DNA of 34,208 nt, taken from the NCBI GenBank assembly GCA_004431415.1, contig QPMI01000030.1, forward strand, positions 1 through 34,208. The letters run 5' to 3'. The notes beneath the pieces were generated by a model that saw only the letters and a list, made by a program, of their open reading frames with translations, ran no database searches and was not told the DNA's origin. Shown here piece after piece: positions 1-18,900 of the stretch. The translations under genes were made by a program, and so were the position numbers. Every line of letters begins with the position of its first letter. Within the stretch, counting starts at the first letter, position 1. Source of the stretch: Cyanophora paradoxa CCMP329. Its lineage: Eukaryota > Plantae > Glaucophyta.

Positions 1-1989
1 GAATGTTGTTATTGCTGGTGAATATAATCCTGGCAAAGTTGCTTTTGTGTTGAATCTATCCCTTTGTGTTTCAATTAACAATCTTATCAGAAGTTATGAG
101 ATCTTTGAGCATATCATTATTTCGAATGTGTCCTTGCCTGAGGCTTCATTCACAACAATCAAGATCTTATCCTCTCTATTGTGGGCAAATCGACCAAACA
201 GATCCTCTTTTGGCTTTCCAGTTGCATAACTTAGGGCATCTCCAAGTATCTTCTTTTGGAAAGTATCAACCAACACATTTTACCAGTTCCCTGCTCACCA
301 ATGAAGATTAAGGATACTCCATTGAGTTCCCCAGGCTTTTGCAGCATGTGGGCAAACCATTTCAACAGATATTCATAGGTATTTTGATCCTCACCAGACA
401 TTAAGAACAAGTGATCAAGGAAAGGCTTAATCATCTCAGCAGTTACATCCTCTGGAGCATTTTCGAATTGCTGATGGTCGACCTTCATTCCTGGATAGAG
501 ATTAAATACAGACTTGCATTTTGCACTGAGAGTAGCAGGAGGGGAAGGAAATCCATGTAAGTTGATCTTGTGGCTGTTGGATCCACAATCCATTTCCTAA
601 ATGATTGCTCCCATTTCTCTTTCTCATTATCTGTTCCCTCATTGACAATCACCTTATGCATCAATGGGGGAAATGCTTTGTAGAGAGCTTCCCAATATCT
701 TTGGGCATCCAGCAAAGTAGTTGTTCATCCCAGAGCATCACACAACCAACATTTTCAACATGATGCATTCGAGCATTGAAATACCTCTTATGCACATTGT
801 AATGTTCAGCCAAAGGAGGATACTTGCAGTCTTGTAATCGATTTCATCTGTGTCCTCGGTAGGAATGCATACTTTTTGGGAAGAGTTCCTTGAAAAGCTC
901 ATTGTTATCTTTGCTCAACCAATAAACCAAGGATTTGAAGGTCAACACTTTGCCAGGCTCAGCCTTCTTCTTGCTTCTGCGAAGCTGTGTAAACTTCTCC
1001 TGGCATTCATCATAATCATACTTGTCACTCTGTTCTGAGAATTGTGGAAGAGTTCAGCTTGCATTTTAGGGTGAACTTGTTGTCTTCCCCAACATTGATG
1101 ATGACCAGTCCTACATCAATCCAAGTTTTATACTCATTAGCTCTCTCACCATTCAGACCCATTATAACACTTTGTAGCAGTTCGAAAGTAACAGGATTTT
1201 CGGGTTCAGTGTCTTTTTCAGCTTCTACCTTCTCAGTCTTCACTTTATCACTTTTTGGCTCCTTTTTAACTGGTTTTGGCTCAGGGCTATAATTTGCGAA
1301 TGCAGAAATATTCGATTCATCCACAAGTTTAGTAGAAGCTGAGAAGAAAGATACAAAGAAGTCCTCATTTCGCATTAACACTTTGTCACAGTCAACGAAT
1401 TTCTTAAAGCAAACGTTTTTATCAACATCTTTTTTGATTTATTTTGAGCATCCAGAGTCTCACCTTTGCAGCAATTGAGGCAGATTAGGTTCTGTGTGGA
1501 GCTGTAAACTCCACTGTCATAATCCTCATTTTTCACCAATCCCATCGCTTTGAAAAGCTTGGGGATATCTTCATGTTTGCATGCAAGCGATTTAATAATA
1601 AAGTGGGCTGAAATCTTGAACTTGGTGACATCCTCCTTAATCAAATAAACCCTTCTATGGCGAACTGCAACAGCAATATCGTTAATAGAAGTGGTACCAG
1701 ATCGCTTCCATAGCTTATCTCTCATCTCTCTTACAACAGTTTCCGCCTCAGCATAGTTATCAGCAATGTTCTCCTTCAAATCAGCGAATTTATCCAGGTC
1801 CAGGTAAACTCTGGTCACTTGCTCAGGCTGAATGCATTCAGCCCAGGTCTTAACCTTGCTATTATCAATGGCTTCAAGGGCATCTTCAGCAGAATCAAAT
1901 ACATGGGTGACCTTGTTGCGATCACCAATGAGAGTACTAAGGAATGTAGCATTTTCAACAGGGGTGGCGAATTTCTCGATTTTGTTCAT
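1..1989 (-). CDS. AEP (PrimPol-type) primase / PriCT-2 / D5-like SF3 helicase fusion; frameshifted, 3' end runs off window
   Basis: ORF pieces 1375-1989 (RVYLDLD, KISAHFII, DSGVYS = AEP motifs), 1025-1381 (EYKTWIDVGLVI, PriCT-2-like), 231-593 (YLLKWFAHMLQKP...IFIGEQGTGK, Walker A) and 94-276 (LIVVNEA, Walker B) are collinear on one strand. Confidence 0.88.
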
Positions 1990-2206
1990 TTTCGATTTTG
2001 GGGACTTCTACCTTTAACGAAGAAAATAATTTCGGAAGGAGGAATTGTCTTTTATATATATCCTATTATTTGCCAAGTCCTTAAGTAGTTTTGGGTCGGG
2101 ATACTGTCTCGATATATAGGTACAGTTTTAAAAAAGAGGGAAGAAAGCTGTCATTTTTTTGCCTCCGATCAAATCGATTTCTACAAAATTTGTTTCGATC
2201 GAGAAT

Positions 2207-2533
2207 TTATTCTTCGATATATTTCCGAGGTCTTCCAACCGGTTTATGCTCTTTGGGTTTCTTGGGCTGTTCATCTTTCTTCTTGTGGTAATATTCCAGC
2301 GCTTTTGCCTTTTTTTGCTCGCGATATTCTTCATTTTCCCTGTATTTCCTCTGGTGTCTGAGGGCAATCTTTTTGAGTTCTTCTGGTGTGTGAACTGTAG
2401 CGGCTCCTTGGGATAATCGTTCCTGCTTCTTTTTATGATAGGCTTCGCGTTTTCTTTGGGCATCTTGCTCCCTTTTCAGTCTCAGCTTCTCTGCTTTTTC
2501 ATCATCTGTGAGTATCTTGCGGATATTCGGCAT
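2207..2533 (-). CDS. Small highly basic coiled-coil protein with C-terminal AT-hook-like motif
   Basis: Intact 108-aa K/R/E-rich ORF ending KPVGRPRKYIEE; AT-rich TAAAG just upstream of the ATG. Confidence 0.7.
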   Translation of the reverse strand: MPNIRKILTDDEKAEKLRLKREQDAQRKREAYHKKKQERLSQGAATVHTPEELKKIALRHQRKYRENEEYREQKKAKALEYYHKKKDEQPKKPKEHKPVGRPRKYIEE

Positions 2534-2579
2534 TTCTCTTTAATAGTAGATACAAATAATTTTTCCTCAATACAATCTA

Positions 2580-2703
2580 TCTACTTTTTCCTTAAGTCAT
2601 TTTTTGTTGCGAACACCAGTTCCTGTCTGTAAACTTTTATAGCTGCCTCAGTGGCATACTGAGACCGCTTTTTCTCAATTATCTTATAGACCTGGGGGTC
2701 CAT
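2580..2703 (-). CDS. Very small basic hypothetical protein (~40 aa)
   Basis: Manual translation MDPQVYKIIEKKRSQYATEAAIKVYRQELVFATKNDLRKK*; fills the gap between neighbouring genes. Confidence 0.4.
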
Positions 2704-2729
2704 TGCTACTATCAGTAGGCAAATAATAT

Positions 2730-2928
2730 TTAATCGGTCTCCCTCTGGGTCTCTGCTCCTCTTTTTGGGCTTTTCTGCGATAATAGGATGCCAGGGCTTG
2801 CTGCTTTTTATACTCTCTATATTCTGGGTCCTCTCTATATCGTTTCTGCATTGCTAGAATGTGTCTTATAGACCCTCAGTAACAGGTTCATCACTGGTAA
2901 ACTCGATTAAACTAATAGTGTCCTCCAT
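2730..2928 (-). CDS. Small basic protein, paralogue of 2207-2533 (one frameshift)
   Basis: Manual translation MEDTISLIEFTSDEPVTEG/..HILAMQKRYREDPEYREYKKQQALASYYRRK aligns with IALRHQRKYRENEEYREQKKAKALEYYHKKK. Confidence 0.6.
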
Positions 2929-2990
2929 TTATATTCCCAGAGAAAACGTTTTCTGCTGGCAGAGAACTTCTCCTTGGATACTCCTGTTGC

Positions 2991-3179
2991 TCATATGTAT
3001 ACTCTGTGGGGTCTGCTGGCATTGACTCCACAGAAACTGTTGATCTCTTCTCTCTCTTGCTCAGCATTATCCTCAGTATCTGACATCTCAAACTCTATTG
3101 TTGTGTCACAGCATCCACTGTGGCAATTGCTCACCACATGCAGACTGAGCATCTCAATAAACTTTCGTATTATATCCAT
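2991..3179 (-). CDS. Small hypothetical protein with Cys cluster (SNCHSGCC) and acidic stretch
   Basis: ORF track; the 3' end may extend to ~2930 through a frameshift. Confidence 0.5.
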   Translation of the reverse strand: MDIIRKFIEMLSLHVVSNCHSGCCDTTIEFEMSDTEDNAEQEREEINSFCGVNASRPHRVYI

Positions 3180-3201
3180 GTCTCTAATAAAACAGAGAAA
3201 A

Positions 3202-3932
3202 TTAAAGCCAAACTCGTCTTTTATATACTGTTGGGGCTACTCCCTTTTCTACTTCAGCTTTGGTGGCACCAGGTTCAATGGTTCCCTTCTGGGTCTTTGT
3301 TTTCATTTCATCTACTGCTTGCTCATCGATTTGGTTCTCTTTCTTAGCAATAAACTGTTTATCTGGGACACCAGTAATGCCCATTTATAAACTTCCTTTC
3401 GAAGCATCTCCTTTAGCTTGGCTCTCTCTTTCTTCTCAGTAACATACTGCTCCAAGGCACTTGATTTGGCTTCCAGATCTTTGAGTTTAGCAGTCATCTC
3501 ATCCCATTGAGCCTTGGGAATTCGATGAATATTTTGAGTGGGAGCAGTCTTATATGTGACTTCACCAGCCATAGACTGAATTACCTTGTCTGATTCCTTA
3601 CTAAGACCTTCACCTTTGCGAGCCAGTGAAAGATCTTGCAAGCCTAAACCTTTATCATCAGCAGCCCAATAATTCGCCTGGCACCCTCAGCAACAGCTTT
3701 CATTTTGAGGCTTCTGGTGAGATGTTGAGTTGGTCACTGGTTGAAGCCTGTGGGGCTTTGTCATCGACTGATTCCTCATAGGCAGCATTAAGAGGGTCTC
3801 TTCTTGTTGTGAGGGCTTCACCTCATTCATACCATTGAATTTCAGTGGTTCAGTGTTAATGGATCCATTGTTTCCACCACCTGAATAGCCAACAGCCCCA
3901 GCTGGGATCCCTATCTTTCGTTTGGGAGGCAT
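3202..3932 (-). CDS. Hypothetical ~240-aa protein (frameshifted), possibly virion core/structural
   Basis: Three collinear ORF pieces (3687-3932 MPPKRK..., 3312-3641, 3202-3384) directly downstream of the ATPase. Function is inferred from position only. Confidence 0.55.
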
Positions 3933-3960
3933 TGTATCTTTATTAGAATGAGAGATAATT

Positions 3961-4737
3961 TTATAAACCGCGTTTATATCGCATCAATTTATTGCTATGG
4001 ACTTGGCTTTTCACTTCTTTGGGGGCTTCCTCTTTCTCTGGTGGTTTCAGTTCATCTTCTTTCTTTTTTGGCTTTCTGTGGAAGCGAGGAAATGGGAAAT
4101 CTTTCACAAGCTCAGCTTTATCTACATAGTATTTAACTGAGTAGTTTGCAGAGGACCAAATAATATACTGATAGGAGTGAACATACTCTTCAAACATCTT
4201 GTAAAATCCTCTTTATTTCGCATTATATTGTATTCTTCCTCTATGGCTTCAAGTTCTTTGCGATTTGCAGCACTAGAAACATAGCATAGTCCGAATTAAC
4301 TCGAATAGTCGAAGAGACTTTCCTTAGCTTTTGTGTGATGCAGATAATGGATATTTTCGAATGGCGACCTCTGGAATACAGAGAGCCAATAATTTTATCC
4401 GAGTTAGGTCTACAATCTCATTATCGATTAAATCATCTAAAACACACATAACTGGTTAACAGGTTCACCTTTTCTATTTTCTCTTGCCTTTCATCTAGCA
4501 ATTTAGCAATGTAAGGGGCATCCCATTTTCCCAGTTGCAATGTTGCAACTTTATCCCAGAAATGATTGAAGCTGGTTCCACTCACAACTAATACAACATC
4601 AATCTTTTTGGCATCATGCAACTGCTTCAACCAATACTTACAGCTTCTGATTTACCAGTTGCTGATTTTCCTATTGCCAGTACACGAAATGGTGGTTCTA
4701 TCATTTCACCAGCCACAAATTCATCCAAATCAGTCAT
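3961..4737 (-). CDS. A32-like (FtsK/HerA) genome-packaging ATPase, frameshifted
   Basis: Manual translation: MTDLDEF...PFRVLAIGKSATGKS (Walker A, ~4648-4671), ...LDDL (Walker B), LYSRGRHSKISIICITQ (Arg finger/Gln sensor), STIRVNSDY. Mostly missed by the ORF track. Confidence 0.93.
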
Positions 4738-4779
4738 TGTTGTATATCTTTCTAATAAAGACATATAAAAATAATGCAG

Positions 4780-6157
4780 GGAGACTGAATATCGTAACAA
4801 TCTACAAATTTATACGACGAACCATCTTTGTCGAAATAATAAACTATGCATGAGAGCGCGAACATTAACATCGATTACCTTATCTGAAGGCATGTAGAGG
4901 GTGAGGAATGAAGAGGAGGAATTTGTTAAATCAACATAACCAGACTGGGCAATATTTCGAATCGCCTTTTCTCCATCAAGGCAGAAGGCAATCCTGAAAG
5001 GACATAGCGATCAGCAACCTTATCCATGTTAGAGCATTTGAAGGCATCAGCAATTAGCTCAGCACCTTTGAGTAGGGAAATTGGCTCAGTGGCAAAAAGT
5101 CGCTGTCCATTTATTTCAGTTGTGAATGTTATCTCTTTGGAGTGGCATAGGTCTTAAGAACACTGTGGGAGCCTGGGATTTATCAACAGTTGCATTATCA
5201 CGAACTGAAACAAGCAGAGCATAAACCAGTCAGAGATTTGAGAGAGGTTAATTCGATGGGTTGGGGCATTGCCCTTGGCAGGGAAAGCACTAGCATCAAC
5301 AAACCCAATGTCTAGAGCAGGAATAGCCATGCCAGTAGTCTTTACTTTTTCAATAAACAGTAGCGAAAGCTCATCAGAAACATTAATAGCATGCATGTAA
5401 AGGCGAGGAGAGGTAATTGTAATACCAGGGGTTGTTGCACCAAGACTGAAAGTGGTGATGTTTTGACCAACATGGGCAAGGGTTCCATCTGTGAAGTTTC
5501 AAGACCATCATCGGCAGTTGCATCAACTGTTCCAACAGCAGTTGTGAGTTCACGACCACCATAGGAAGTTTCAACATAACCCTTCTTCAGCATCCTTAAA
5601 CCAAACAGTAACAACCATTTCACCAGATAAAGCACCAGGGGAGGTAGTGATTTAGCCAAGGCACAGGAATTTCAACGAAAAATGAGCCACCAAGGCGGTT
5701 GGTTCCATGAGCAGGAATGCCATGAAACCATGCCCATTTGATCGCTTCTTTTTAGCTAGTTGATCCTCCGAATAATAGACCAGGGGAAATGAGCAGGAAA
5801 TCAGATGGAATATGGTAGGTGTAAGATCCATAGGTAATTTCAAGTCGCTGAACTAAAGCACCAACTGGGCGAGTGTATCCATGCGAACTAGGTCAGTATC
5901 ACCAGCAAAAGTGATGGCTGGAAGGTCGAAAGCAAGTTCGAGTTTTCCACAGAAATTGTAGCGAGGTAGCTTAAAGGAAATGCGATTTCCAACATTATTC
6001 TCAAAAGTATTGCTGGGATTCACAACAACTAGAACTGGCTTAGACTTGGATTCGAGACAAGCATAAGGGAGTTATCCAGGAAAAAGGCTTTCGCCTCCTC
6101 TGGGGTTGTTAGGGCTTCTTTCAGCGAAAGTCTTTGAAGAGTGGAAGTGATATCCAT
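4780..6157 (-). CDS. Major capsid protein (probable double jelly-roll, PLV type), heavily frameshifted; 3' end approximate
   Basis: Manual translation from the ATG at 6157: MDITSTLQRL...NRISFKLPRYNFCGKLELAFDLP...VQRLEITYG...FFVEIPVPW...HRINLSQI...EINGQRLF...AQSGYVDLT. About 450 codons, beta-strand rich, lying between the penton and the ATPase. Confidence 0.8.
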
Positions 6158-6209
6158 TATATTCTCTTTTATTATACTGCAACATAAAAATCTACCAATG
6201 ATCCTTAAT

Positions 6210-7212
6210 TTATGCGAAGCTTGTAATAACTGGATAGGAAGGGTGAAGCTGCGACATTCTCATCTTAAAGTATTCATAAACTGGGTCTCCTGCTGGCTCA
6301 TCACCATAGCGAATTTCAAAGGTCAGATGAACAGTTGACCCTCAAATCAATTGGTTCATTACAGCATTAACAATATCAACCGAGAAAGTGGATAATCCAA
6401 CCTTTTGTTATAGTATTATAAAGTGGATGAGCTTCTGTTGAATTGTAAACAACATGCTCACCATAGTCTTATCAGGGACCACTATTTTGTGAAAGTAACC
6501 AGTCAGAAGACCATCCCCACATTGCACCAGATCACCAGCTCCTTTACTCTCACAAACAAAACACTGTCCCTGGTCTTCTCAGGCTCAAAAGAAGATATAA
6601 TGCCATTCACGCGACCACCAGTAAAGATTCCATCAGTGAGAGCATCATAGACCTGTGATTGGATTGGGGAGTTACCATATCTTCCAGGATCAAGACCCAG
6701 CAGTCTAGCTGAACTCAACAGCTTTTGGATTGTTTGTTGGCTTGGGTTCACAGCTACTGAGAAAAGCCAAGTAAAATGGTACTGCTGAGTGGAATATAAT
6801 TCGTTTCAGTGATTCATCCCATTTGCAGCGAATGGATGGTTGGGGATTTCTGCCTTCGAATTTAGAGTTAATTACATTCACCAGTTGCTGGTGGCTTTGG
6901 ATGGGGGTGTTTCGACTTATAATGAATTGTTTCCATTGTTCATAGTCAGCAGCTGGGCGAACTGTTGGAATTCCTGAGCTTCCAGCTCCAGGAGTTTGTT
7001 CAGAATAATAAATGCTAAATGCATTGTCAACTGTCACATCTCCTGCTTTGGTTTCACCACTCACCATAGGGATACTGTTATAAAATTCGGCTGAGACCAG
7101 TCTCACAGCCTCACATTCTCATAACTACTGGGGAGTCTAGCCACAAAGCTTGATGTGGACCATCACCAGAGATTGTATTAAATGAGCTAACCTCGATGTA
7201 ATCCACAGGCAT
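6210..7212 (-). CDS. Penton / minor capsid-like protein 1 (frameshifted)
   Basis: N-terminus MPVDYIEVSS...SFVARLPSSYENV/EAVRLVSAEFYNSIP and C-terminus ...FSVDIVNA/NEPIDL/GSTVHLTFEIRY match the terminal motifs of PLV/NCLDV penton-like proteins; adjacent to the MCP. Confidence 0.72.
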
Positions 7213-7241
7213 TCTTCTTTTATCTATATTTATATATTAAA

Positions 7242-8168
7242 ATGAACCGGCTCGTTAATATTGATAGCAGGGATAGAAGCCAAGGACAAAATGAAAACTC
7301 TTACAGGGTCACCCTCACAACTCCAGTAGAGAGACCAAGGGAATGTAGGGTTCTCTATGCAGAGATTCCAAACAGTATCTATAACAGTGTGGGAACTGAT
7401 CATCTAACAGTTCAGTTTAATTACCAAGATGGTTCATATAACCAAGTGATCACACAACAAGTGTATCCCCTTCCAGTGGCTACATCAATCAGGGTCATTT
7501 TGGGGTCACACACCCTTATAATTATGGGCTGAACTATTCAAGCTTCCAAACTATTGCAGGCAAAACAGTAGCTTTTGAGTTCAAGATATTCTACAACCCA
7601 ACTACCTATAAAGTGGAGTTTTACAGTAACCATGAGTTTCGTTTTATTGCAAGCAACCAGAGAATAGGGAAGCTTTTGGTGTGAGTTCTACTGAATACAC
7701 AATGGTTATTATAGCACTCCTCCTGCTGGTGGATCTCCCTATCGACCTGAAACCTTTTAAAGTATGATGGCAAACCTATTACACCTGATCACCCAGCATG
7801 GGGAATCACCTTCTCAGGACCCAGACTCTCATCTAAGCCCTTGCAATATTATTTTGACAGCAGAAAGATGTCTGATATGAATGCTGAGCAGTATCTATAC
7901 ATGCACATTAAAGAGCTTGCCCTTTTGCCAGCAGACACAATATAATTCCGAAATCGCAACCACATAACCAGGGGCAATCCTTAGATTGCAATTGAGTAAG
8001 GATATAGGTGGCTATGTTTACCATAGTGGTGAACATGCAGAATTCATTCAGATAAATGACAGAAACCTGGTGATAAGGGAACTCACAGTTGAGTTTAAAG
8101 ATTACTTTGGTGAACTGATTGATATGAATGGAATCGATAATTCTTTTCAGTTGGAGTTTATCGAATAA
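7242..8168 (+). CDS. Penton / minor capsid-like protein 2 (frameshifted)
   Basis: MNRLVNIDSRDR...SYRVTLTTPV...VLYAEIPNSIYN and C-terminus IRELTVEFKDYFGELIDMNGIDNSFQLEF are typical penton-family end motifs. Confidence 0.8.
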
Positions 8169-8204
8169 AGGCACCTGTAAAGTCAACTCTCATTGTGGGA
8201 GCAT

Positions 8205-9708
8205 TCACATACACAAGGGGATAAATGCGAATATATTTAATTCTGAGAGAAAACCTATGTAAAAAGCATCCTTGATGCTGAGAGGAAATCCACTCAATAG
8301 AGCCACATCACCTGAGTTGTGAGCATTGTTAATGTTCTCACAGACATATATTTTGTTTTGCCCATCTGATCGAATAAAAGACCAGTTGATCCCATCAGTG
8401 GATGTTGCCACATTGAAAGTCTTAATAAAAGCATTGGTGTCCCCTGATCCATAGGCAATCACAGAAGAGAGTTCAAAAGTATATGGAAAAGCAACTTGAA
8501 GGTATTCAGTGGGGTTTCCATATCTGCTCAGGAGCATAGGCTCCAGCTTCCAGCCAAATGCTGAAGGTCTAGCCATGAAAGGCTCTTTACCAGTCACAGA
8601 GGATGAGGCAGTGAAGGCATCATCTGCAAGCTGATACCAATTAGCATCCAAAGGTGGTGATGTAGTGAGAGTGGATGAGATGTAAGCCTTTGTAGGGTTC
8701 TTTAATTCATAGTTTGCTACTAGAATGCTGCAAAGCTTATTAATCATATCATTGTTTGCTGCTATGTATGTTTCTGTGAAAGAAAGCATATCTGGGATTT
8801 TAGAAGTGTCATCCAGGGAGCTTACTATGTGATTCGGAAGAGGTACTGATAACCTATAGTATCTCCCATAATCCTGATCATAGTTGTAGGGTAACAACTC
8901 CTCCATCTTATCAAGGGCAGAAAGCTCACTTGCAGCCATGAGCATGTTAATCAATGGGCTTCCATCTGTTGAGGCAATCCATGAGAGAATGCCCCAGCTG
9001 TTGACAGTCTCATAAGCATAACCCACATAATCAGACTCTAAATGTGGGTCCACCTCTCCACAAGAGATACTTATTACTATAATGTCATCATCATCACTGT
9101 AAATCTTCTTTGCATGGCTGTAACCACACACACTGGGATTATTGTTTCCCGAAATGGCACCATCAATGAGACAGACATATACTCCCGATTGAAATCAACA
9201 ATGCTTACAGGTGAAAAGTATGTAGGAGCAGCAGAAGTAGCCTAGCAGCAATCTTACAGGGCATAAAGTTGTAATTGTTATCATTTGTGATAAATATTGG
9301 TTTCATATTCTGAGTATCAAAAGATGTAATCACAATGTCCTTTAGGGAATCCTGTATTAGTGATTCCCCAGTAACTGAATTGATTGCAGTCTCCAAGGGT
9401 CCCACATCATACTTTGTGTTAAATAGGGCATTTTCAATGATATTTCGAGGATTTGCGAAAATCAAAGGCAGTTGAGTTAGGTAAATATTGTGTAAATCGT
9501 TTGCTGTCAGTTTAGGTTCACCTGGTCTATCAGGATGCCTTATATTCAAACCTATTGCAATGATCCCACCAGTGGAAGTTCCACTCACAAGATCCACAAG
9601 ATCGATTATTCTCCTGCCAGTTCGATTTTCGATTTCTTTTAGCAGCCTGGTTATGATAATGCCCCTTGCACCCCCGCCAGAAAGACTTAAAACGACCTTG
9701 AGAGGCAT
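8205..9708 (-). CDS. Patatin-like phospholipase fused to a C-terminal F5/8 type C (discoidin) domain, frameshifted
   Basis: LSLSGGGARG, GTSTG nucleophile elbow, TSAAPTYF, LIDGA...NNP. The C-terminal EYLQVAF...FIKTFNVATSTDGINWSF is discoidin-like. Confidence 0.88.
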
Positions 9709-9751
9709 CTTTTACTTATCAGGAATTTTATAAATCCATATAGTAAAAGCC

Positions 9752-12700
9752 ATGAGCTTCAATTACCCACCAAATCTAGAAACCATTCAAGATGATAATG
9801 CAAGCAGCACCAAGCATGTGAACTTTGATAATATTAAAGTAAAGGGTTCAGTTTCAATTGACCACAGCTCTGATAATTCATCAAAGACTCAATCAAGGAG
9901 CATGCTTTATCTGTGAATCAAACCGATCCAGATAAAGAGGATGTCAGTGTAGCCTTTAGTTTGGTAATGTGAAAGCAAACCAAGTGGCAGAGATCAAAGC
10001 AACAAGAAGGAGACCTAGGAAACTAAAAACCAGTGGCACTCACCCAGATATACCTTCCAGGTTCGATAGTGGTCGATTGATTTTCAATGTTCAAGATGAG
10101 CAGGGCAAACAGAACACAGCTTTGCGAATTTACAATGAGGGCAGCACTGCAAAAGCTGAGGTCCCCAAGTATTGCAAGTGGGTCCCATTGCCAATACAAA
10201 TCAGGTCTCCTACACAAATGATGTCTACCCCAAGGATATTACATATGACTTTGCAAGAAATGAGCCTTTTGGGTTCTTTACTCCAAAAGATGTCCATCAA
10301 AAAAAGCCATCAATTACAATCAACAGTAGCCCAGTCAACCAGTAGCAATCCATTTACACCCTGATTTAGTCGAAATGGATAGGCACCTTTTGCCTTTGTA
10401 TAGCAATGTGAAAGACCTTGGAATTCGAACCAGGCAATGGCGAAATATCCATGGCAGCAATGTGTATGCAAATGGAGAGAAGCTTGTAAGTGAGAAAACC
10501 TAAGAGAAATCATTGAGCATTATGGTCCCAATGGACCTACTGTCCCATTCCCTATTCCATTTCCCAATGGACCACCCGATTTAACACCAAAGAAGCAACC
10601 TGGAAGAGAATACACAGCAACTGAAGATGTAGCCTTTGGGCAGCACATTGTTAGTTGGGAGCAAGTTCGCAATAAACCTATAATTGAACCAAAAAGCAAA
10701 TAGATGAGCAGTATTTACCTCCTGAAATCGATATATTAGAGCTTGATGAATATCAATTCGTTCCAGATGAGGAAGAATATTTACCAGATGGTTTCGACCC
10801 ACAAGAATATGAGTATGATCAGTTTGACCCCAATGAGGAGGAGATACTCCAGATGGTTTTGACCCACAAGAATATGAGTATGAACAGAACTATGAACCTG
10901 ATGAGGAGTATTTACCAGATGGTCATGATCCACCAGCTGTTGACTATGAGCAACCTTATGAACCCCATGAGGAATTGTTACCAGATGGATTTCGACCTGA
11001 GATCTGGGAGTTCTTCCTGATTATGAACAAATTAATAATAAACCTGCAAAGTATCCCCAGAGGATCACAATCATGATTGGATGAGATCTTAGGCAAACCT
11101 CAAAAGTATCCACCAGAGGATCACAGGCATGATTGGGGTGAAATTGATGGGATTCCAACTGAGTTCCCACCAAGCAAACATGAACATATTTGGGATGAGA
11201 TCAATGACCAACCAGAATTTGCAAAGGTGGAGCCTCTTGATAACTTGGGGTTTCTCTTTACCAGACTTGTAATATCCCTGAAAGGATCTTTTTGAATGAA
11301 CACTATGTTCATGTGAATGGGACACTTGCAAATTCAGCTATGAGAGGACCACTTCATATTAGGACATTACCAGGCTCTTTTGAAACCCCACCACCACCAG
11401 GAGCAACCATACCAAATATCTTTGTGTCAAGCTACATGGAGGCTGACATTCCCACAGATACATTCAGAGTCCCAACAGACCCAGCAACCTACCAAAATTA
11501 CAACTCTGCTATACAGGTTCATGTAGCAGATGTAAGCAGCTTAGATGGCTCAAGACCAATGATAGTTTTCAGTCGAGATAAGTATTCCTACATTCCCATA
11601 GTGGGAACTGCAATGATAATTATGGAAGGGCAGAGCTTGCATGGATTAAAACAGATTATGGTGGGGTTCTGGAAGCCAATCAAAGAATGGCTGCAAAAAA
11701 CATACACAATGAGAGCATTTCGAGAGTAGTCACAGAGGATTACCTTCAAGCCCAAAACTACATAGATGAAACAGAGCTGAATGTAATCATTGCAGGTATA
11801 GGTATTGGTGTTACAGGCAATTACCTCCCTCTCACAGGTGGGACTATTGATGGAACAGTAACAGCATGTAACTTCTTTGTCCATACTGAAAGCAATCAAA
11901 CCTTTCCTGTGGTTCATCCAGGAGGTGAGTATGAGATACCTGATGATCCAGCTATTATGCCCATTAAGATTGATCTCCCTTCTGATTATGTAGGAAGGGG
12001 TGAACTAAAGACCATCTCTTTCACAGGAGATTATAATGATCTCATAAATAAACCTACTGCTGCAAATCTGCATCCTGTTGCATTTTCGGGTAGTTTCCTT
12101 GATCTAAATAATAGATCACACACCCACACAAAGGCAGAAATCACAGATTTTGCACACACTCACACCAAATCACAAATTACAGATTTTGCACACTTCCACA
12201 CAAGAGCAGATATCACAAATTTCGCTCACACTCATGTTAAATCAGAGATATTAGATCTCGGAAATGTTGCATATGTGGGTCACACCATACCAAGGCAGAG
12301 ATTACAGATCTTGGAAATGTTGCATATGTTGGTCACACCCACACAAAGGCAGAGATTACAGATTTTGCACACACTCATGATTGGAATACAGATATCTATA
12401 ACAAACCTGCAATTTTCTCAGGAAACTACAATGATTTGACCAATAGACCAACTCTTGATCCTTTCACAGCCACCACAATCAGAGCCAACAACACAATGTA
12501 TGTAGGATCAGGTCAGATTGTAGAACCAGCAGGACCTATGTTTGAAGAAACATGGTTCTTCCACAATTCGCAGAATTACTTTGATAAAACCTTACTTGTT
12601 CGTGGAAATGCCTATGCAAGAAATTTCTATGCTATGAACCCCTCAAATAATGCGACCATCAGTCGATGTATTACAGAGGCAGATCTTTCCAGTCAACTCA

Positions 12701-12999
12701 ATGCATATTTTAATGGGAAAATCCAAGCAGGAACGTATGTTTACACTACTCCTTATCTTTGGGCAAATCCTGACCATACGTTTAACCTCACTATTAATTT
12801 CAACAGCAGCTTTGCTAACCCTCCTATTGTAACAACTGGTATACAACACAATGAGACAGCCTACTACTATCGAATGTATGTTAGGCTTAAACAAGTTTAC
12901 AGTAGCTATTTCACTTGTGAGCTTGACATAGTTCCATTAAGTTCTTTTGACAGACCAGGATTTCCAGTTACAATTCATTACATTGCTGTCGCAATTTAA
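9752..12999 (+). CDS. Long fibre protein (~1,080 codons if the pieces are one gene) with HxH shaft repeats and an H-type-lectin-like tip
   Basis: ATG at 9752 (MSFNYPPNL). Acidic PDGFDPQEYEY repeats, KYPPEDHxHDWxEI and HTHTKAEITDFA repeats, YLPLTGGTIDG, and C-terminal KIQAGT...INFNSSFANPPIVTTG...IHYIAVAI. No intergenic-type gap between the pieces. Confidence 0.75.
10763..11220 (+). repeat. Intragenic tandem repeats (acidic EEYLPDG units, then PPEDHxHDWxEI units)
   Basis: CCAGATGGTTTyGACCCACAAGAATATGAGTATGA at 10784 and 10849; AAAGTATCC...AGAGGATCAC...CATGATTGG twice at ~11048-11140. Confidence 0.85.
12119..12385 (+). repeat. Intragenic HTHTKAEITDFA / HTHTKAEITDLGNVAYVG repeats
   Basis: Repeated CACACnCACACnAA...ATyACAGATTTTGCA units and a duplicated GATCTyGGAAATGTTGCATATGTkGGTCACACC segment. 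Confidence 0.9.
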
Positions 13000-13018
13000 C
13001 TATTTCGTAATTATAAAG

Positions 13019-14093
13019 ATGACCTCCCTTTTAGAGATTCCAAACTATGAACTTGCAGCCAAATCACTCCACAGCACCTCTCATGAAGTAGTCGACTCCA
13101 CACCCGGTTTTATTTGCACTGAAACTACAAGTAATACCTCTTTCACAGAGAACAGTATACTGAGGTCAAAGAAATTCGATGTGATCGAAATGGAGGCAAG
13201 ATTAGAACCACAGGCATTATAATCTCGAATAAAAACCAAGTTCAAGCAGGTCAGGTAGTCCCCAATTCAGCAATATATGATAATGTGGGTGGAGTCACCA
13301 CAGCACAGATAGTTACTTTTGGTAACACAAGTAATAGTTCTGCTCTTGTGGTGAAAAGTGGAGGAGCATACATTGGTGATGGAGCAAATGTTGTGGGACT
13401 GTCACAGCAAATCAATTAAATGTGAACGGGACAAGTAGTTTTGGTGGGTATATGAATTTCAATGGTGGGCTTTCAGGGAGTATTCAGTATGGAACACTCA
13501 CACTTTCCACAAGAATAAATACACCTGAGATTGACAACATAAGTGACACAGTCATGAATTACAAGAGGAATGGGACACAATCTTCTCTCTTCAAAAACAA
13601 CTCAAACAGATAACACAACTGTTCAACATCTCACACTTCCTGACTACAAGTATCTGAAATTAAGTAGTCACCCTCGTTTCTTTGCAACAAAACAGCAACC
13701 AAATGGGTCAATAACTGAAACATTTCGTTACATTCAAACCGAATCCTTTTATGCGATAGTCAACAATGGAAATCATTTCAATACCACAACAGGGCTTTTT
13801 ACCGCACCTGTTTCCGGTAACTATTTAGTCTCATTCAGTGGATTCTTTTTTATTCCTGATACTCGAAGAAATGGAATAATCACTACCTCCTTACGAAAGA
13901 ATGGAAGCTCATTTGGAGTTGAGGTTACAACTTTAAATAAATCATCAACTGTGTATGCTCATAATGGGTTTGAGATTATTGTAAGCTTGAAGCTAATGAT
14001 GGTCTCTCTTTAACTTTTGCTTCTAATGATGCTGGTAATATAGAATATAATGTCAGATTTTTCTTCGGATGTATGCTTCTCAGCTCTTCATAA
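13019..14093 (+). CDS. Short fibre paralogue A with C1q/TNF-like head (frameshifted)
   Basis: Shared N-terminal module (TPGFICTETT...EIRCDRNGG...SGGAYIGDG). C-terminal HPRFFA...NNGNHFNTTTGLFTAPVSGNYLVSF is a C1q signature. Confidence 0.85.
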
Positions 14094-14115
14094 TATTATC
14101 CACATAATGTAAAGT

Positions 14116-15133
14116 ATGACCACTCAAATAGCTGTCCCTGTTTTCTGTTATGCCGCCCCAAAATTACATCAACTCAATCACACAGTAACAGATGCAACCC
14201 CTGGTTTTATTTGCACTGAAACGACAGGAGCCGATTCGTTTTCTCAAAACTCTGTGATCAGATGCAAAGAAATTCGATGTGATCGCAATGGGGCAAGGTG
14301 AGAACCACAGGTTTAATAGTTTCAAACAAGAACCAAGTTCAATCAGGTCAGATTGTTTCCGATTCATCAATATATGATGATGTTGGAGGGTCACCACACC
14401 CAAAATAGTAACCTTTGACAATACAATTAATAACTCTGCTCTTGTTGTGAGAAGTGGAGGAGCTTACATTGGAGATGGGGCAAGAGTTGATGGAACTCTT
14501 ACAGCAAACCAGGTGAGTATTACAGGAACAAGCACCTTTACAGGATTGGTAACAGCTAATGCTGGTATTTCACTACCAATTGCCTCACAGGCTACAATCA
14601 CAGCAACAAACAAGGTTGTTACACCAGAAATCGATACAGGAGCCAATGTAGACCTTCTCCTGAAACGAAATAGTTACACTGTTGTTACTCTGGAAGCGAA
14701 TAGTTTGACAGTTAATACAGGGTGTTATCTCAAAACATCACATCCACGATTTTCAGTTCAACTTGGCTACAACCACACTGCTACAACTTCTGCTGATCTA
14801 CTAAACTGGGCAACAGTTCGAGTAAACAATACCAATTCATTCAGCACATCAACTGGAAGGTTCACAGCACCTGTTGCAGGACACTATCGATTTTCAGTAT
14901 TCACTTCTTCAACCACAACTTCTGCTATTGAATTGTTTCTCAGGGTAAACAATGCAGATCCAGGGGGATTGAGCATTTCCCAAGTTCACAATCTGTCAAC
15001 AACAAATAAAGCGCTGTGTTTCTCTTGCATTCTCAATCTTGCCCAAAACGAATATGTGACACTTGTTACAAATTCAGTCGGTTCCTATGCCAGTCAAACA
15101 GCCTTCTCAGGTGAATTAATAAGCATCGTTTAA
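14116..15133 (+). CDS. Short fibre paralogue B with C1q/TNF-like head (frameshifted)
   Basis: Same N-terminal module; HPRFSV...NNTNSFSTSTGRFTAPVAGHYRFSV...LNLAQNEYVTL...FSGELI. Confidence 0.87.
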
Positions 15134-15155
15134 TTTTCTTATGGTAGTTTAGGAA

Positions 15156-15421
15156 ATGTCGAATATTTACCAAGTGGTTCTATCTGATATTGAGAAGTTG
15201 GGAATGGAATTTTGTGCTGCTTCTGTTCAAGATTGGATCGATAATGCAGCCCATAACAGGGCAAGAATCGCAATTGATGAGATTGTTCAGAAAGAGATCC
15301 ACTCTTGCATCTCAGGTGGAGTTCAAATACCAACCTCAAAGGAAGCAATTGTGTTACAGGCATTCCGAAGGGAACTGTGAAAAAAGCGATCGAGTATAAT
15401 ATTGTCACAGAAGAACAATGA
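15156..15421 (+). CDS. Small protein resembling a family found beside fibre genes in aquatic phages (possible fibre accessory factor)
   Basis: MSNIYQVVLSDIEKLGMEFCAASVQDWIDNAAHNRARIAIDEIVQ...QIPTSKEAIVLQAF. The W-x-x-N-A-x-x-N-R-A-R-I-A-x-D-E-I pattern is recognised from memory; the 3' end is frameshifted. Confidence 0.65.
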
Positions 15422-15456
15422 ACATTATTTTTCTTTCCTTCTTAGTAAAAGAAGCA

Positions 15457-16302
15457 ATGGGTGAATATAATCGAGTTCAACTGCCTATATATTCCCTTGG
15501 ATCCCCTGCAATGCATTTTCGCCAGCATGAAGTAAATGATGAGGTTCGTGGTTTAGAATCCACAGAGAGACCCAATTCCAATGGCAACTCCTTTGATAAA
15601 AATTCGATTATTCGAGTTAAAGAGCTGAGAGCTGATAAGAATTCTGGTGTGGTTAAAACAACTCGACTTCTTGTCACAAATGCTAACTTCTTTCAGCCTA
15701 CTAATGGAGGTCCTGATGCTTACAGTGTTGATCTGAAAGCCCTTGATTTCGATAAGAATTCTGCTGCTGTTACTGTGAGATCAGGAGGAGCATTTATTGG
15801 GGGTGGCTGTCGAATTTCAGGTCAGCTTTCATCCTCAATTTCGTATAATGATGTCCCAGATACTCTAGAGCAAAATGTAGAAGACCCCCAACGAATTCGA
15901 TTATATACTCCTGTTGCACAGCAGCCATTAATTCAATTTTACATTGGATATACTGTTACTCTTGAAAACTCGGAATTAATTGAAGGAACCAAAAGAGTAC
16001 TGAGAGGTCTTGCGATTCCATCTGCAATGCTTTCCCTTTGTAGAGCCAACAACAATCAAGTAGGTCATAGATACTATTTCAATGTTCAGGGATATAATCA
16101 TTTCGGTTATGGCTACTGTGTTTATAATAATAATTTCACCTTTGACTTGTTTGTTACTGATATTGGGTTATATACTATAACTCTTATCGGTTTGAGAACA
16201 GATATAGCCGCTGTATCAGCTCTTAGAGGTGTAACTCCTGATACTCTTTCAGTTACAGGGTTTTACCAAGAATTAGATGTAATTGATGACCCAACCCCAT
16301 AA
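15457..16302 (+). CDS. Short fibre paralogue C with non-C1q C-terminal domain
   Basis: Intact ORF, probable start at MGEYNRV (15457) after TAAAAG. Shares ELRADKNSGVVKTTRLLVTNANF and SGGAFIG with A, B and D. Confidence 0.8.
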   Translation: MGEYNRVQLPIYSLGSPAMHFRQHEVNDEVRGLESTERPNSNGNSFDKNSIIRVKELRADKNSGVVKTTRLLVTNANFFQPTNGGPDAYSVDLKALDFDKNSAAVTVRSGGAFIGGGCRISGQLSSSISYNDVPDTLEQNVEDPQRIRLYTPVAQQPLIQFYIGYTVTLENSELIEGTKRVLRGLAIPSAMLSLCRANNNQVGHRYYFNVQGYNHFGYGYCVYNNNFTFDLFVTDIGLYTITLIGLRTDIAAVSALRGVTPDTLSVTGFYQELDVIDDPTP

Positions 16303-16324
16303 AAGATATATCCTTTAATGTAAA

Positions 16325-17156
16325 ATGGCTGAGCAACCCCACTTGAACGAATTATTACACCTCAGCTATCATTAGCTGCCCAGCAAACCATGTTCTGCAG
16401 CATGCTACCTTTGATGATGTGGAGGGTCTCCAATCAACAGAGGTCCAACCTACAATGAACACCTTTGGTTCCACCCACAAACTGAGATTACAGGAACTCA
16501 GGTGTGATAAAAATAATGGAATAGTTAAGACAACTAAGCTACTTGTCACAAATGCAAACTTTTCTGCTCATTATGGAGACCCAGATAGCTATGGAGATCC
16601 TCTGTCTACTTATTCTTTTGAATCTAGGTCGGGAGCTATTAACTGCAAATCGGGGGGAGCTTATATTGGTGATGGTCTTAGGGTTGGTGGGGCTGTTGGA
16701 GCGCCTTTATTTGTGAATGATCAACCCAATCCCATTGATCCCAATACAAGAATTCGAACCTATGTCCCCAGCATGAATGCCCCCTATATAATCAAAATAT
16801 TCCCCATTGTAGTAAATGAACAGACAGCAGTAGTAGACTCCCTTGTTGAGATTGGTGACCACTACAAGGTGGTTGTGGATATCCCACCAGATGTTTATGC
16901 TCTTTGTCAAGTAGAGGGTGGAACTCCTAATTTTGCAGTTGTGATCACCCCATATGATAATTTTGGTATTGCTTATCATGGAGTCAATTTCGGTTTGGAA
17001 GACTATCAGTTTCTGGTTAGAGCCACCAAGTTTGGTATCTACAAGTGTGTATTATATGCTGAGAGAACCGATTTTATTGCAAGGCAGAATACCTATGCTG
17101 AGTATTATGGGACAAATCGATATTTCCCCATTTTCGGGCAGGATACTGCTCCATAA
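16325..17156 (+). CDS. Short fibre paralogue D with C-terminal domain homologous to paralogue C
   Basis: ATG at 16325 with an early frameshift; ELRCDKNNGIVKTTKLLVTNANF, SGGAYIGDG; C-terminal DP..RIR.Y.P...IP....LC...Y..FG..Y...G.Y...L...RTD shared with C. Confidence 0.8.
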
Positions 17157-17178
17157 GAATATTGGTTATATATAGAGT

Positions 17179-17450
17179 ATGGATAGTAAAACAAAAAGTT
17201 TATTGATGCTGCTATGACAGTTCATGGTAAAGATAAATTCGATTACAGTGAGACACATTACATCAAAGCTCAAGAGAAAGTATCTGTGAGATGTTTGCAG
17301 TGTAATAAGGTGATCCTTACCTATCCCTTTAATCATGTGAAGGGATCAGGGTGTAGGGAATGCAACAAAAAGCACTCTCAGGCTTATAGGAAAAGGGCTA
17401 CTTCATCAATCAGAGTAGAGTATAGGGATATTTGCATTAGGTTCGATTAG
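17179..17450 (+). CDS. Zn-ribbon protein, single DUF723-like repeat
   Basis: FIDAAMTVHGKDKFDYSETHY...VSVRCLQC...PFNHVKGSGCREC resembles the repeat unit of viral homing-nuclease-associated proteins; no nuclease domain follows. Confidence 0.7.
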
Positions 17451-17479
17451 GTTTAATTAATTTTTCTAAGGTATTCTTA

Positions 17480-17878
17480 ATGGAGACTAAATACAGAGGC
17501 TTTCATGTTATGCTTGATTACAAAGCTAAATCAGCTATTGCAACAGGACATGAGCATGTAAGCTTCCTAGGTAATTGGATTATGAGAACCCTAGAACAAG
17601 CAATATTAAGACAAGGCATTAGGATTGTTCATAAACACTGTGAGATATTTGATGGCAAAGTATCACCTCCTGGGTTTGCATTGGTTCTGCTATTAGATGA
17701 AAGCCATTGCACAGCTCATTGTTATTCCAATGAAGGCATGTTAGCAATTGATATATTCAGTTGTGGTAAAGAAGCTCAGCATAAAACACAAGCAGTTGCA
17801 GATGAGATCGATAAAACAATGAATTTCCTCACATTTGAGAAGACTGAGAGACATAAACATGATAGATTCCCGTTTTGA
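17480..17878 (+). CDS. speD: Pyruvoyl-dependent S-adenosylmethionine decarboxylase-like proenzyme (short prokaryotic/viral class)
   Basis: Intact 132-aa ORF: GFHVMLDY...SPPGFALVLLLDE^SHCTAHCYSNEGMLAIDIFSCG, with the ESH self-cleavage site and the DxFxCG motif. Confidence 0.88.
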   Translation: METKYRGFHVMLDYKAKSAIATGHEHVSFLGNWIMRTLEQAILRQGIRIVHKHCEIFDGKVSPPGFALVLLLDESHCTAHCYSNEGMLAIDIFSCGKEAQHKTQAVADEIDKTMNFLTFEKTERHKHDRFPF

Positions 17879-18112
17879 TGGGTTTCTATAATGATAATCA
17901 AGGTAATTTACCTTTTGTTTTACAATAGCAACTGTTACAAAAAGATATAATATATCCTTTTCCTACAGTAGCTTTCTACAATGTTTATTTTCCGGATTCC
18001 GGACATTTTTTACGATAGAATTCTATTGTAAGTAATTGGAATACTATTCGATTTCATTACAGTAAAACTCAACATTCCCCTTGATTCCCCCTATTATATA
18101 ATATTTATATTA

Positions 18113-18550
18113 AAGTGGACTCAAGGTTGACTCATATAAATCGTAAAAGTAGTAATAGTATATGGATTTTGTTACGAATTCAATGCAAGGGTTGACTAAG
18201 TGGGTTGAGTTGACTCAAATTTCACAGGAAATATTTGGGACCAAAAGTTTTCTAAAAAGGATTTCAAAAAATGTGTCAACTCCCCCCACTTAGTCAACCC
18301 TGACCATAAACAGTAAGGATTTGAGCTAACATGTATCACAAAGTGAACATTTTGAGTCCACTTAGAAGATCCACTTTTGAAATCCAAGTTGATTTTGCTT
18401 GAAATTTCAAAGTTGATCTAAAAGTGAGTCCACCCTGATTGATTATGGTAACAAAGTTGACTAAGTTGACTAAGTTGAGTCATCTTAAGAAATTCAAAGA
18501 GACTAAGAGTTCAAAATGTTTATGAAAAGTGAGTCAACTTAGACCACTTA
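18113..18550. repeat. Subterminal array of GTTGAC/GTCAAC/GTGGAC/GTCCAC-core motifs, including a 16-bp inverted repeat
   Basis: GGGTTGACTAAGTGGG (18189-18204) is the reverse complement of CCCACTTAGTCAACCC (18285-18300); tandem AAGTTGACT x2 plus a partial copy at ~18453-18480. Confidence 0.8.
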
Positions 18551-18597
18551 TGATAACAAAGTTAAATATTTAATTGATTTAATCGGAAAAGAACATG

Positions 18598-18825
18598 ATT
18601 TAATCGAATTTATTGATATAATTCCGATTAGATTCATTTAGGATTCAATTAAGATCAATCGAAGTTATTGATATAATTCCGATTAACTACAATTAAGATA
18701 CAATATCGATTAATCGAGTTTATCGATATAACATCGATTAAATTAATTGAAATTGCATATAAAAATATGAAAATGCATGTGAAAATTCAAATAAATTAAT
18801 CGATTTTATTGATATAACATCGAAT
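18598..18825. repeat. Four degenerate ~30-bp direct repeats
   Basis: AATCGA..TTATyGATATAA(TTC/CAT)CGA at about 18602, 18657, 18712 and 18798. Confidence 0.85.
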
Positions 18826-18900
18826 CACACATATGAATATTCATATTTTAATCCTGAGGCGGAACGCCGAGGGATTAAAATATGAATATTCATATGTGTG
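18826..18900. repeat. Terminal hairpin: perfect 29-bp inverted repeat with 17-nt loop
   Basis: CACACATATGAATATTCATATTTTAATCC (18826-18854) and its exact reverse complement (18872-18900); loop TGAGGCGGAACGCCGAG. Confidence 0.95.

What the first reader, a model, noticed from the sequence alone, without database searches (positions are those of the whole stretch)
1..18900. Endogenous Polinton-like virus with an unusual gene set, integrated in a probable glaucophyte genome
Seen: an AT-rich intron-less island with ATPase, capsid-like, penton-like and primase-helicase genes, joined sharply to GC-rich intron-containing DNA. Most core genes are hidden from the ORF track by frameshifts. Known: the A32 ATPase + DJR MCP + penton module defines Polintons, PLVs and virophages, and endogenous PLVs are common in protists. 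Inferred: this is a virus of a glaucophyte, a lineage for which I know of no isolated virus. The combination of AEP-SF3 replicase, twin pentons, five fibres, patatin and SpeD may mark a distinct group.
Basis: partly seen in the sequence, partly recalled or inferred. Interest (0 to 1): 0.85.

Follow-up and report, generated by a model that had tools for sequence, protein, structure and literature searches.

The report
Palindrome-tipped endogenous virus of Cyanophora
This is one of many copies of an already catalogued virus built into the genome of the alga Cyanophora paradoxa; its broken genes are likely assembly errors, and it ends in a fold-back DNA palindrome that likely reflects how such viruses copy their ends and insert.

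Summary
The island is real. Bases 1-18,899 (GC 39.5%, CpG o/e 0.35) hold primase-SF3 helicase, A32 ATPase, capsid, two penton-like, five fibre-like, patatin-discoidin and SpeD genes. The host is Cyanophora paradoxa (flanking GBSS exon 87/89 identical to PDB 6GNG). It is not new: Bellas 2023 listed 366 capsid genes in this species, among them one 52% identical to this one and a closer one, and Bulzu 2025 tabulated 156 glaucophyte elements with the same lectin fibre, patatin-discoidin fusion and SpeD. The frameshifts are likely assembly errors: short-read contigs of this multicopy family add the missing bases, whereas single-copy host DNA matches exactly. The same end joins other flanks in sister copies, and the flank also exists without the virus. 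This fits a July 2026 model (Halocafeteria) linking terminal palindromes, non-pPolB replicases and RVE integrases to hairpin-primed replication; here it appears in a distant, culturable host. Capsid fold, tree placement and the left end were not resolved.

The parts
1..1989 (-). AEP primase-polymerase / PriCT-2 / SF3 (D5-like) helicase, at least 660 aa, cut by the window edge
   Evidence: DxD, sxH and hD-like motifs and Walker A/B/motif C seen by eye (motif names recalled); Pfam PriCT_2 and DUF5906 weak; PHROG primase E 8e-9; seven frame switches in 546-1727 matched by seven gaps, net +7 nt, in an X7 contig
2207..2853 (-). Two or three small basic ORFs, two ending in a GRP (AT-hook-like) motif
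   Evidence: Translation; no family hit; role inferred
2912..3932 (-). Unknown ~340-aa protein, broken by frameshifts
   Evidence: no family hit in fragments
3961..4764 (-). A32-like packaging ATPase, ~270 aa
   Evidence: Walker A, Walker B and the R-G-R-H / Q motifs by eye; Pfam Pox_A32 E 0.003, below cut-off
4802..6157 (-). Major capsid protein, likely double jelly-roll
   Evidence: 51.6% identical over 442 columns (E 2e-142) to P0003, a C. paradoxa EukProt protein; the same protein is Bellas 2023 Table S2 row 106, HHpred 98.47% to an iridovirus MCP; Atlas feature hits include DJR-like and Capsid_NCLDV clusters at 0.92-0.93, a lead only; own fold failed
6210..7212 (-). Penton-like ORF 1, ~333 aa
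   Evidence: Recalled penton-type end motifs only; no database hit
7242..8168 (+). Penton-like ORF 2, ~309 aa, divergent from ORF 1
   Evidence: Recalled penton-type end motifs only; no database hit; no similarity to ORF 1
8205..9708 (-). Patatin phospholipase fused to an F5/8 discoidin domain, ~500 aa
   Evidence: Pfam Patatin E 1.5e-13, F5_F8_type_C E 2e-6; two breaks join them; the glycine loop, GxSxG and DG motifs are present (motif roles recalled)
9752..12999 (+). Long fibre-like protein, ~1,085 aa, with acidic repeats, PTR-like repeats and a C-terminal H-type lectin
   Evidence: the same architecture is named for a C. paradoxa PLV in PMC12220804
13019..15133 (+). Two paralogous fibre-like proteins with C1q heads (13019-14092, 14116-15133)
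   Evidence: Pfam C1q E 4.7e-5 and 2.4e-10; 43% identical to each other
15457..17156 (+). Two further paralogues sharing the ~130-aa N-terminal domain, with unknown heads (15457-16302, 16325-17156)
   Evidence: 31-36% identity in the N-terminal part; two database relatives at 62-63%; fold failed
17179..17450 (+). Zn-ribbon fragment of the kind found in HNH-type endonucleases
   Evidence: PHROG endonuclease families E 1e-8
17480..17878 (+). SpeD-type S-adenosylmethionine decarboxylase proenzyme, unbroken, with the ESH self-cleavage site
   Evidence: Pfam AdoMet_dc E 2e-11; aligned to 1VR7, E 4.5e-5
17879..18826 (.). Non-coding terminal region, likely the right TIR: seven GTTGACTMA sites, an inverted pair at 18188-18301, four copies of a ~19-nt repeat mostly 55 nt apart
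   Evidence: patterns chosen after seeing the sequence, so their chance values are optimistic; no left end in the window to prove a TIR
18827..18899 (.). Terminal 73-nt imperfect palindrome: 29-bp stem, 2x2 GA/GA internal loop, 4-bp stem, 3-nt tip; each arm holds its own 16-nt palindrome
   Evidence: (z -10.76; 0 of 200 shuffles fold as well); unchanged in an X16 contig with another flank
18900..20893 (.). Insertion target: a separate GC-rich multicopy host repeat of unknown type
   Evidence: High summed depth and many variant contigs; X1 and X3 contigs continue leftwards from 18,899 into non-viral letters, an empty site; no Pfam hit in its frames
21800..24900 (+). Single-copy host gene, granule-bound starch synthase, spliced (bounds approximate)
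   Evidence: Pfam; one exon 87/89 identical to 6GNG; GT..AG joints; contigs of ~2 kb with 0 differences and 0 gaps

Best explanation
The region is the right-hand 18.9 kb of one copy of a multicopy Polinton-like virus inserted into a host repeat in Cyanophora paradoxa, ending exactly in a 73-nt palindrome that is likely an opened terminal hairpin of a linear genome. Shown: the gene set, the host, many copies, a fixed end shared by copies with different flanks, and the palindrome. Inferred mechanism: once excised, the ends would fold back; the hairpin would prime or resolve end replication while the AEP-SF3 protein, loaded at the short repeats just inside the end, primes and unwinds, probably with a host polymerase, since there is no pPolB in the window. 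The A32 ATPase would package the DNA into a double jelly-roll capsid. Lectin- and C1q-tipped fibres would bind the cell, and the patatin-discoidin protein would breach the membrane. An RVE integrase, predicted in the missing left part, would join the opened hairpin's 3' end to host DNA and leave the palindrome at the junction. Copies are likely kept silent by host CpG methylation. My odds: identity as an integrated multicopy PLV about 0.93; frameshifts as artefact about 0.85; hairpin-end mechanism about 0.5.
For: Host and family. Multicopy: the terminus contig against the single-copy GBSS contig has depth 2958/63.5 (X3), 3746/33.3 (X12) and 167/~6 (X1); this is only a rough sign, being biased by GC. 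Fixed end: X15 loose ends begin at 18,899 and 18,901 with different flanks, and an X15 contig stops at 18,899; an X16 contig joins about 807 foreign letters to 18,899 (my reading of its coordinates) and has none of its 5 differences inside the palindrome; X1 and X3 show the flank without the virus. Artefact: all 12 listed indels of 175 places are bases the window lacks, all 12 beside the same base; helicase contigs gain +4 nt with 4 gaps, +3 with 3 and +7 with 7, matching the frame switches seen by eye; the flanking repeat shows the same omissions while single-copy DNA shows none; Bellas 2023 describe this artefact. Palindrome: z -10.76. Model: Halocafeteria elements with terminal palindromes preferentially have non-pPolB replicases and particular RVE integrases. 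Glaucophyte elements: rve 85 of 156, tyrosine recombinase 0 of 156. C. paradoxa methylates CpG on repeats and virus-derived genes; the island has CpG o/e 0.35.
Against: No integrase and no left end lie in the window, so TIR, TSD and RVE were not seen for this copy. No listed contig bridges this exact junction: DNA contigs stop at 18,853-4, inside the palindrome, and the tables are cut. Short-read contigs show sister copies, not this locus; 163 of 175 indel rows were not shown, and one X7 contig (1-542) has 6 gaps but only +2 nt, so not every gap is an omission. The two strands fold almost equally (-30.6 against -29.5 kcal/mol), so no strand-specific selection is shown. The joined end reads GT-3', not the CA-3' recalled for retroviral integrases. 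The Halocafeteria authors call their model untested and offer accidental annealing as an alternative. Both structure predictions failed (pLDDT 32 and 33). 49 of 156 glaucophyte elements carry pPolB, and I could not tell whether those lack palindromes.
Confidence: 0.6

Rival explanations
1. The same integrated PLV, but the palindrome is only a symmetric binding site for the integrase or replicase, or a by-product of insertion. Replication is primed by the AEP at the internal repeats, perhaps on a circle.
For: The element encodes a primase with its motifs present, so it needs no hairpin primer. Two repeat families lie just inside the end. The strands fold equally. The Halocafeteria preprint names this alternative.
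Against: The palindrome ends exactly at the shared terminus, is long (29+4 bp) and has a conserved mismatched tip in an independent copy, as hairpin telomeres of poxviruses do (listing of PMC8956199).
Confidence: 0.25
2. A small relative of mriyaviruses or the Zora group (Nucleocytoviricota-like), with a HUH endonuclease in the missing part that nicks the palindrome for rolling replication.
For: A preprint reports Mriyaviricetes-related regions in a glaucophyte assembly (figure not seen). The standard PLV MCP profile hit 2 of 156 elements, and an NCLDV-type penton profile hit 15. HHpred top hits are NCLDV capsids.
Against: No HUH, VLTF2/3, RuvC or Mriya48 call in 18.9 kb, though the fragments were broken and no dedicated profiles were available. 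Bellas 2023 note that most PLV MCPs resemble NCLDV capsids. Mriyaviruses lack integrases.
Confidence: 0.1
3. An old, decayed relic whose frameshifts are real mutations.
For: About 69 breaks; strong CpG loss; sister copies differ at many sites.
Against: The breaks are single missing bases beside the same base, which short-read contigs supply; they track copy number, not viral origin. Several genes are unbroken, and intact 456- and 465-aa MCPs exist in the species.
Confidence: 0.1
4. A chimeric contig joining a free or co-cultured virus to host DNA.
For: No listed contig bridges this junction, and both sides are repeats.
Against: The join falls exactly at the end that sister copies share with other flanks, inside a repeat seen unbroken elsewhere. 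14 of 24 listed runs hold at least half the words, and all 24 carry one organism label. Copies embedded in long contigs are published.
Confidence: 0.05

Closest known systems
C. paradoxa endogenous PLVs of Bellas et al. 2023 (PMC10120064; Tables S2, S4) and Bulzu et al. 2025 (PMC12220804; Table S6)
   Same: Same species and capsid lineage: 51.6% to the 456-aa MCP; by eye 31 of 33 N-terminal residues match the 465-aa MCP of row 107. Same PTR-PTR-H-lectin fibre, discoidin-patatin fusion, AdoMet_dc, PriCT-2/SF3, and no protease.
   Different: Those papers tabulate the elements without describing their ends in the text I searched ('hairpin' 0 hits in both, 'palindrom' 0 in Bellas). I could not tell which of the two clusters (272 or 94 MCPs) this copy belongs to.
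Halocafeteria seosinensis endogenous virophages and PLV subtype 4 (bioRxiv 10.64898/2026.07.28.741278)
   Same: Terminal palindromes at the element end, with a non-pPolB replicase; RVE integration there and in 85 of 156 glaucophyte elements.
   Different: A stramenopile host (recalled), 52-nt palindromes in the figured subtype against 73 nt here, mostly virophages; TSDs were seen there and could not be seen here.
Aquintoviricetes-type PLVs with AEP-S3H replicase (cryptophyte PLVs; Gezel-14T as cultured example of the class)
   Same: MCP + penton + A32 ATPase, phage-like fibres, no protease; AEP-S3H and AdoMet_dc occur in cryptophyte PLVs.
   Different: The MCP escapes the standard profile; many of those elements integrate by tyrosine recombinase, which was found in 0 of 156 glaucophyte elements.
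Mriyaviricetes (PMC11253617) and Zora/VC102 group (bioRxiv 10.64898/2026.06.19.733378)
   Same: NCLDV-like capsid hits, primase-SF3 helicase, no polymerase; TNF-fold C-terminal domains in minor capsid proteins (C1q shares this fold, recalled).
   Different: No HUH, VLTF2/3, RuvC or Mriya48 seen in the window; mriyaviruses lack integrases.

Membership tests
Polinton-like viruses (broad sense) | [quoted passage not shown] | tested here: inconclusive
   Own AlphaFold2 model failed (pLDDT 33). The sequence is 51.6% identical to a protein with a published HHpred hit of 98.47% to an iridovirus MCP; Atlas lead only.
Polinton-like viruses (broad sense) | A32-like packaging ATPase | tested here: met
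   Motifs in order across four frames; Pox_A32 E 0.003 on a 41-aa piece; PHROG terminase-ATPase E 3.6e-5.
Polinton-like viruses (broad sense) | Single jelly-roll penton | tested here: inconclusive
   Two candidates by recalled motifs; no hit in Pfam, PHROGs or PDB.
Polinton-like viruses (broad sense) | Integrated, 15-40 kb, sharp GC-contrasted end | tested here: met
   At least 18.9 kb; fixed end with several flanks and an empty site.
Polinton-like viruses (broad sense) | TIRs, TSD and an integrase (RVE or tyrosine recombinase) | not testable with these tools
   The left end is outside the window and no genome is held.
Polintoviricetes (Maverick-Polintons, group 1) | pPolB and cysteine protease | tested here: not met
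   The replicase is AEP-SF3; no protease hit in the window; protease 0 of 156 in the published table. The left part was not seen.
Virophages (Virophaviricetes) | Virophage-type MCP and cysteine protease | tested here: not met
   No Pfam hit for P0003; no protease hit; the virophage MCP profile hit 0 of 156 in the published table.
Mriyaviricetes | HUH endonuclease, VLTF2/3, RuvC, Mriya48 | tested here: inconclusive
   None called in 18.9 kb of broken fragments; no dedicated profiles; the left part is missing.
Any named PLV group | Placement in MCP and ATPase trees | not tested
   Only one MCP relative was found among 1.84 billion representatives with a 95-aa query; no reference set was available.
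Hairpin-ended linear DNA viruses (works-like comparison) | Incompletely paired terminal palindrome | tested here: met
   conserved in a second copy.
Hairpin-ended linear DNA viruses (works-like comparison) | Covalently closed ends in free DNA; flip/flop isomers | not testable with these tools
   Only contigs were available, no raw or long reads.

The most novel reading that the evidence does not exclude
Cyanophora carries tens to hundreds of still-intact copies of an unnamed deep capsid lineage whose free genome is linear with poxvirus-like mismatched hairpin ends, copied by a primase-helicase and inserted by an RVE integrase that opens the hairpin. This would be a hairpin-replicating, integrating class of small DNA virus, testable in an axenic alga, and a first handle on viruses of glaucophytes.
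Probability: 0.35. Interest if true: 0.75.

Novelty: already known. Interest (0 to 1): 0.42.

Why it matters
How PLVs without a protein-primed polymerase copy their ends is open; a 2026 preprint proposes terminal hairpins and asks for cases across hosts. This copy supplies one in a distant lineage, with the end mapped to the base, in an alga that grows axenically and holds both pPolB-type and primase-type elements, so the prediction can be tested within one genome. It also shows that the apparent decay of these copies is likely an assembly artefact. The virus family itself, its host and its gene set are already in published tables.

Tried and rejected
No genome is held, so the left end and integrase could not be fetched. 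Viral-contig scans: the MCP piece gave 1 chance locus, the AEP piece 0, the ATPase piece 0, and the helicase piece 4 loci related only in the SF3 domain. Motif scans gave 2, 0 and 3 loci, none with tblastn similarity to any parsed gene. Word-index protein searches found nothing for the MCP and AEP pieces, weak evidence. AlphaFold2 gave pLDDT 32 (fibre 15457-16299) and 33 (P0003 with five window pieces), so no fold search was run. The second Atlas search did not complete. PDB sequence searches for capsid, penton and fibre gave nothing significant. No Rfam hit in 1-22,000 and no tRNA in the window. The sigma-70 scan was at chance level and is not apt for a eukaryote. No RNA holder listed; the sparse cover in runs guessed to be RNA says nothing on expression. 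Strand asymmetry of the hairpin as a sign of selection: only 1.1 kcal/mol, rejected. SpeD and twin pentons as group markers: rejected. Earlier findings of this scan: nothing relevant.

Full report
Observation. The first 18.9 kb have GC 39.5% and CpG o/e 0.35, against 70.9% and 1.12 beyond 21.5 kb. Three-frame reading shows densely packed genes broken every few hundred bases. A parse with X at breaks gives 14 genes and about 69 breaks, an approximate count. Family hits: patatin E 1.5e-13, F5/8 E 2e-6, C1q twice, H-lectin E 7e-5, AdoMet_dc E 2e-11, and sub-threshold Pox_A32, PriCT_2, DUF5906 and PTR. PHROGs adds primase E 8e-9 and an endonuclease Zn-ribbon. The four shorter fibre-like genes are paralogues. 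The two penton calls rest on recalled motifs.

Host. One exon of the starch synthase right of the island is 87/89 identical to PDB 6GNG. PMC6086201 reports the C. paradoxa GBSS structure and lists 6GNG; I assign it by elimination, having seen only the abstract listing and one table passage. The only MCP relative among 1.84 billion representatives is a C. paradoxa EukProt protein, 51.6% identical over 442 columns.

Already known. PMC10120064 (passages, section 7, supplement rows of Tables S1, S2, S4 seen) lists 366 MCPs in C. paradoxa in two unnamed clusters of 272 and 94. Row 106 is the protein I found (HHpred 98.47% to an iridovirus MCP); row 107 is a closer, intact 465-aa MCP, with 31 of 33 N-terminal residues equal by eye. 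PMC12220804 (abstract, sections 10, 11, first part of 13, Table S6 seen) counts 156 glaucophyte elements: ATPase 139, rve 85, tyrosine recombinase 0, protease 0, pPolB 49, lipase 89, AdoMet_dc 66. It names the PTR-PTR-H-lectin fibre of a C. paradoxa PLV and the discoidin-patatin fusion. AdoMet_dc also occurs in three cryptophyte sets. PMC8502044 (one passage) mentions adintovirus-like contigs in this species. Preprint 10.1101/2025.04.19.649669 (passages, section 10; figure and supplements unseen) reports Mriyaviricetes-related regions in a glaucophyte assembly. Preprint 10.64898/2026.06.19.733378 (parts 1-4 of 5 read; supplements unseen) does not contain the word Cyanophora, and its supplements might place this family.

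Copy number and frameshifts. 14 of 24 listed runs hold at least half of the words of 12,000-21,000; all 24 carry one organism label. I laid 8 of the 24. Thousands of variant contigs fall on the island. Terminus contigs are about 30 to 110 times deeper than single-copy GBSS contigs, a rough sign of tens of copies. All 12 listed indels (of 175) are bases missing from the window, each beside the same base. In the helicase, contigs gain 4, 3 and 7 bases with 4, 3 and 7 gaps, matching the frame switches; one contig at 1-542 has 6 gaps for a net +2, so some gaps go the other way. Single-copy host contigs of about 2 kb show 0 differences and 0 gaps, while the flanking repeat has the same omissions. 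The errors therefore follow copy number, as PMC10120064 section 7 describes. PMC6704402 (passages) describes a long-read assembly of this species corrected by majority rule; I do not claim the window comes from it. The contigs represent sister copies, so this locus itself is not proven intact.

The end. The island stops in an imperfect palindrome, 18,827-18,899: a 29-bp stem, a 2x2 GA/GA loop, 4 bp and a 3-nt tip, z -10.76 against 200 shuffles. Inside it lie seven GTTGACTMA sites and four ~19-nt repeats (patterns chosen afterwards). X15 contigs leave the window at 18,899 and 18,901 into different flanks. An X16 contig runs through the whole palindrome unchanged into about 807 other letters, so it is not a long-read fold-back artefact. 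X1 and X3 contigs show the flanking repeat continuing without the virus. DNA contigs of the terminus stop at 18,853-4, and no listed contig bridges this particular junction.

Mechanism. Preprint 10.64898/2026.07.28.741278 (passages, section 7; supplements unseen) finds terminal palindromes in Halocafeteria virophages and one PLV subtype, preferentially with non-pPolB replicases and certain RVE integrases, and proposes hairpin-primed replication, untested. This element fits: AEP-SF3 replicase, no pPolB in the window, a terminal palindrome, and a family rich in rve and without tyrosine recombinase. I infer a linear hairpin-ended genome, opened and joined by an RVE integrase, packaged by the A32 ATPase, entering by lectin fibres and patatin, and silenced by CpG methylation (PMC12344493, passages). 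I give the hairpin step about 0.5. Against it: a primase makes a hairpin primer dispensable, the strands fold equally, the end is GT rather than CA, and no integrase was seen.

Limits and novelty. Capsid fold and tree position were not established here. Seven paper searches listed no paper describing the ends of Cyanophora PLVs or an isolated glaucophyte virus; most subscription journals and all preprint supplements are outside the library. PMC11253617, PMC11161782 and 10.1101/2023.10.16.562556 were seen as passages; PMC8956199 as a search listing only. Verdict: an already catalogued endogenous PLV family, with one apparently undescribed and testable feature, the palindromic end. Interest 0.42.

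Noticed in passing
window 1-17900: CpG loss depends on context: TCGA o/e 1.19, one-sided TCG or CGA 0.25-0.9, all other contexts 27 observed against about 351 expected. At silent codon junctions C stands before G in 40 of 477 cases against 506 of 1147 before other bases, and is spared most after T or before GA. It may record a methyltransferase's flanking preference.
   Followed up: partly
window 18900-20893: The target repeat keeps its CpG (o/e 0.95 for 18,900-21,500), has no recognised domain, and ends near a very high-copy short element at about 20,711-20,911 with many different loose ends at 20,854 and 20,893; possibly a transposon end.
   Followed up: partly
window 18233: Contigs in X7 and X15 leave the window here into the same other sequence, suggesting a subfamily with a different terminal region.
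   Followed up: no
window 11850-13376: Contigs in three runs join 13,376 back to 11,850 with 17 letters between, and others skip PTR repeats: fibre modules appear rearranged among copies. Summed depth drops over 13,341-15,341, so the C1q fibres may be variable.
   Followed up: no
window 20914-21033: Five tandem copies of a 24-nt unit next to the target repeat.
   Followed up: no
window 25133-26668 (-): A host HAD-like hydrolase gene by its recalled DxDG motif; no Pfam hit on the unspliced frame.
   Followed up: no
L002, L004, L005: Small viral contigs sharing a ~685-aa protein with an SF3 helicase domain 37-39% identical to this helicase; L005 also has an ATPase-like and a ribonucleotide-reductase-like ORF by eye.
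   Followed up: no
P0001, P0002: Two unnamed proteins (Logan, ENA) 62-63% identical to the 16,325-17,156 gene; the ENA one may come from an environmental relative.
   Followed up: no
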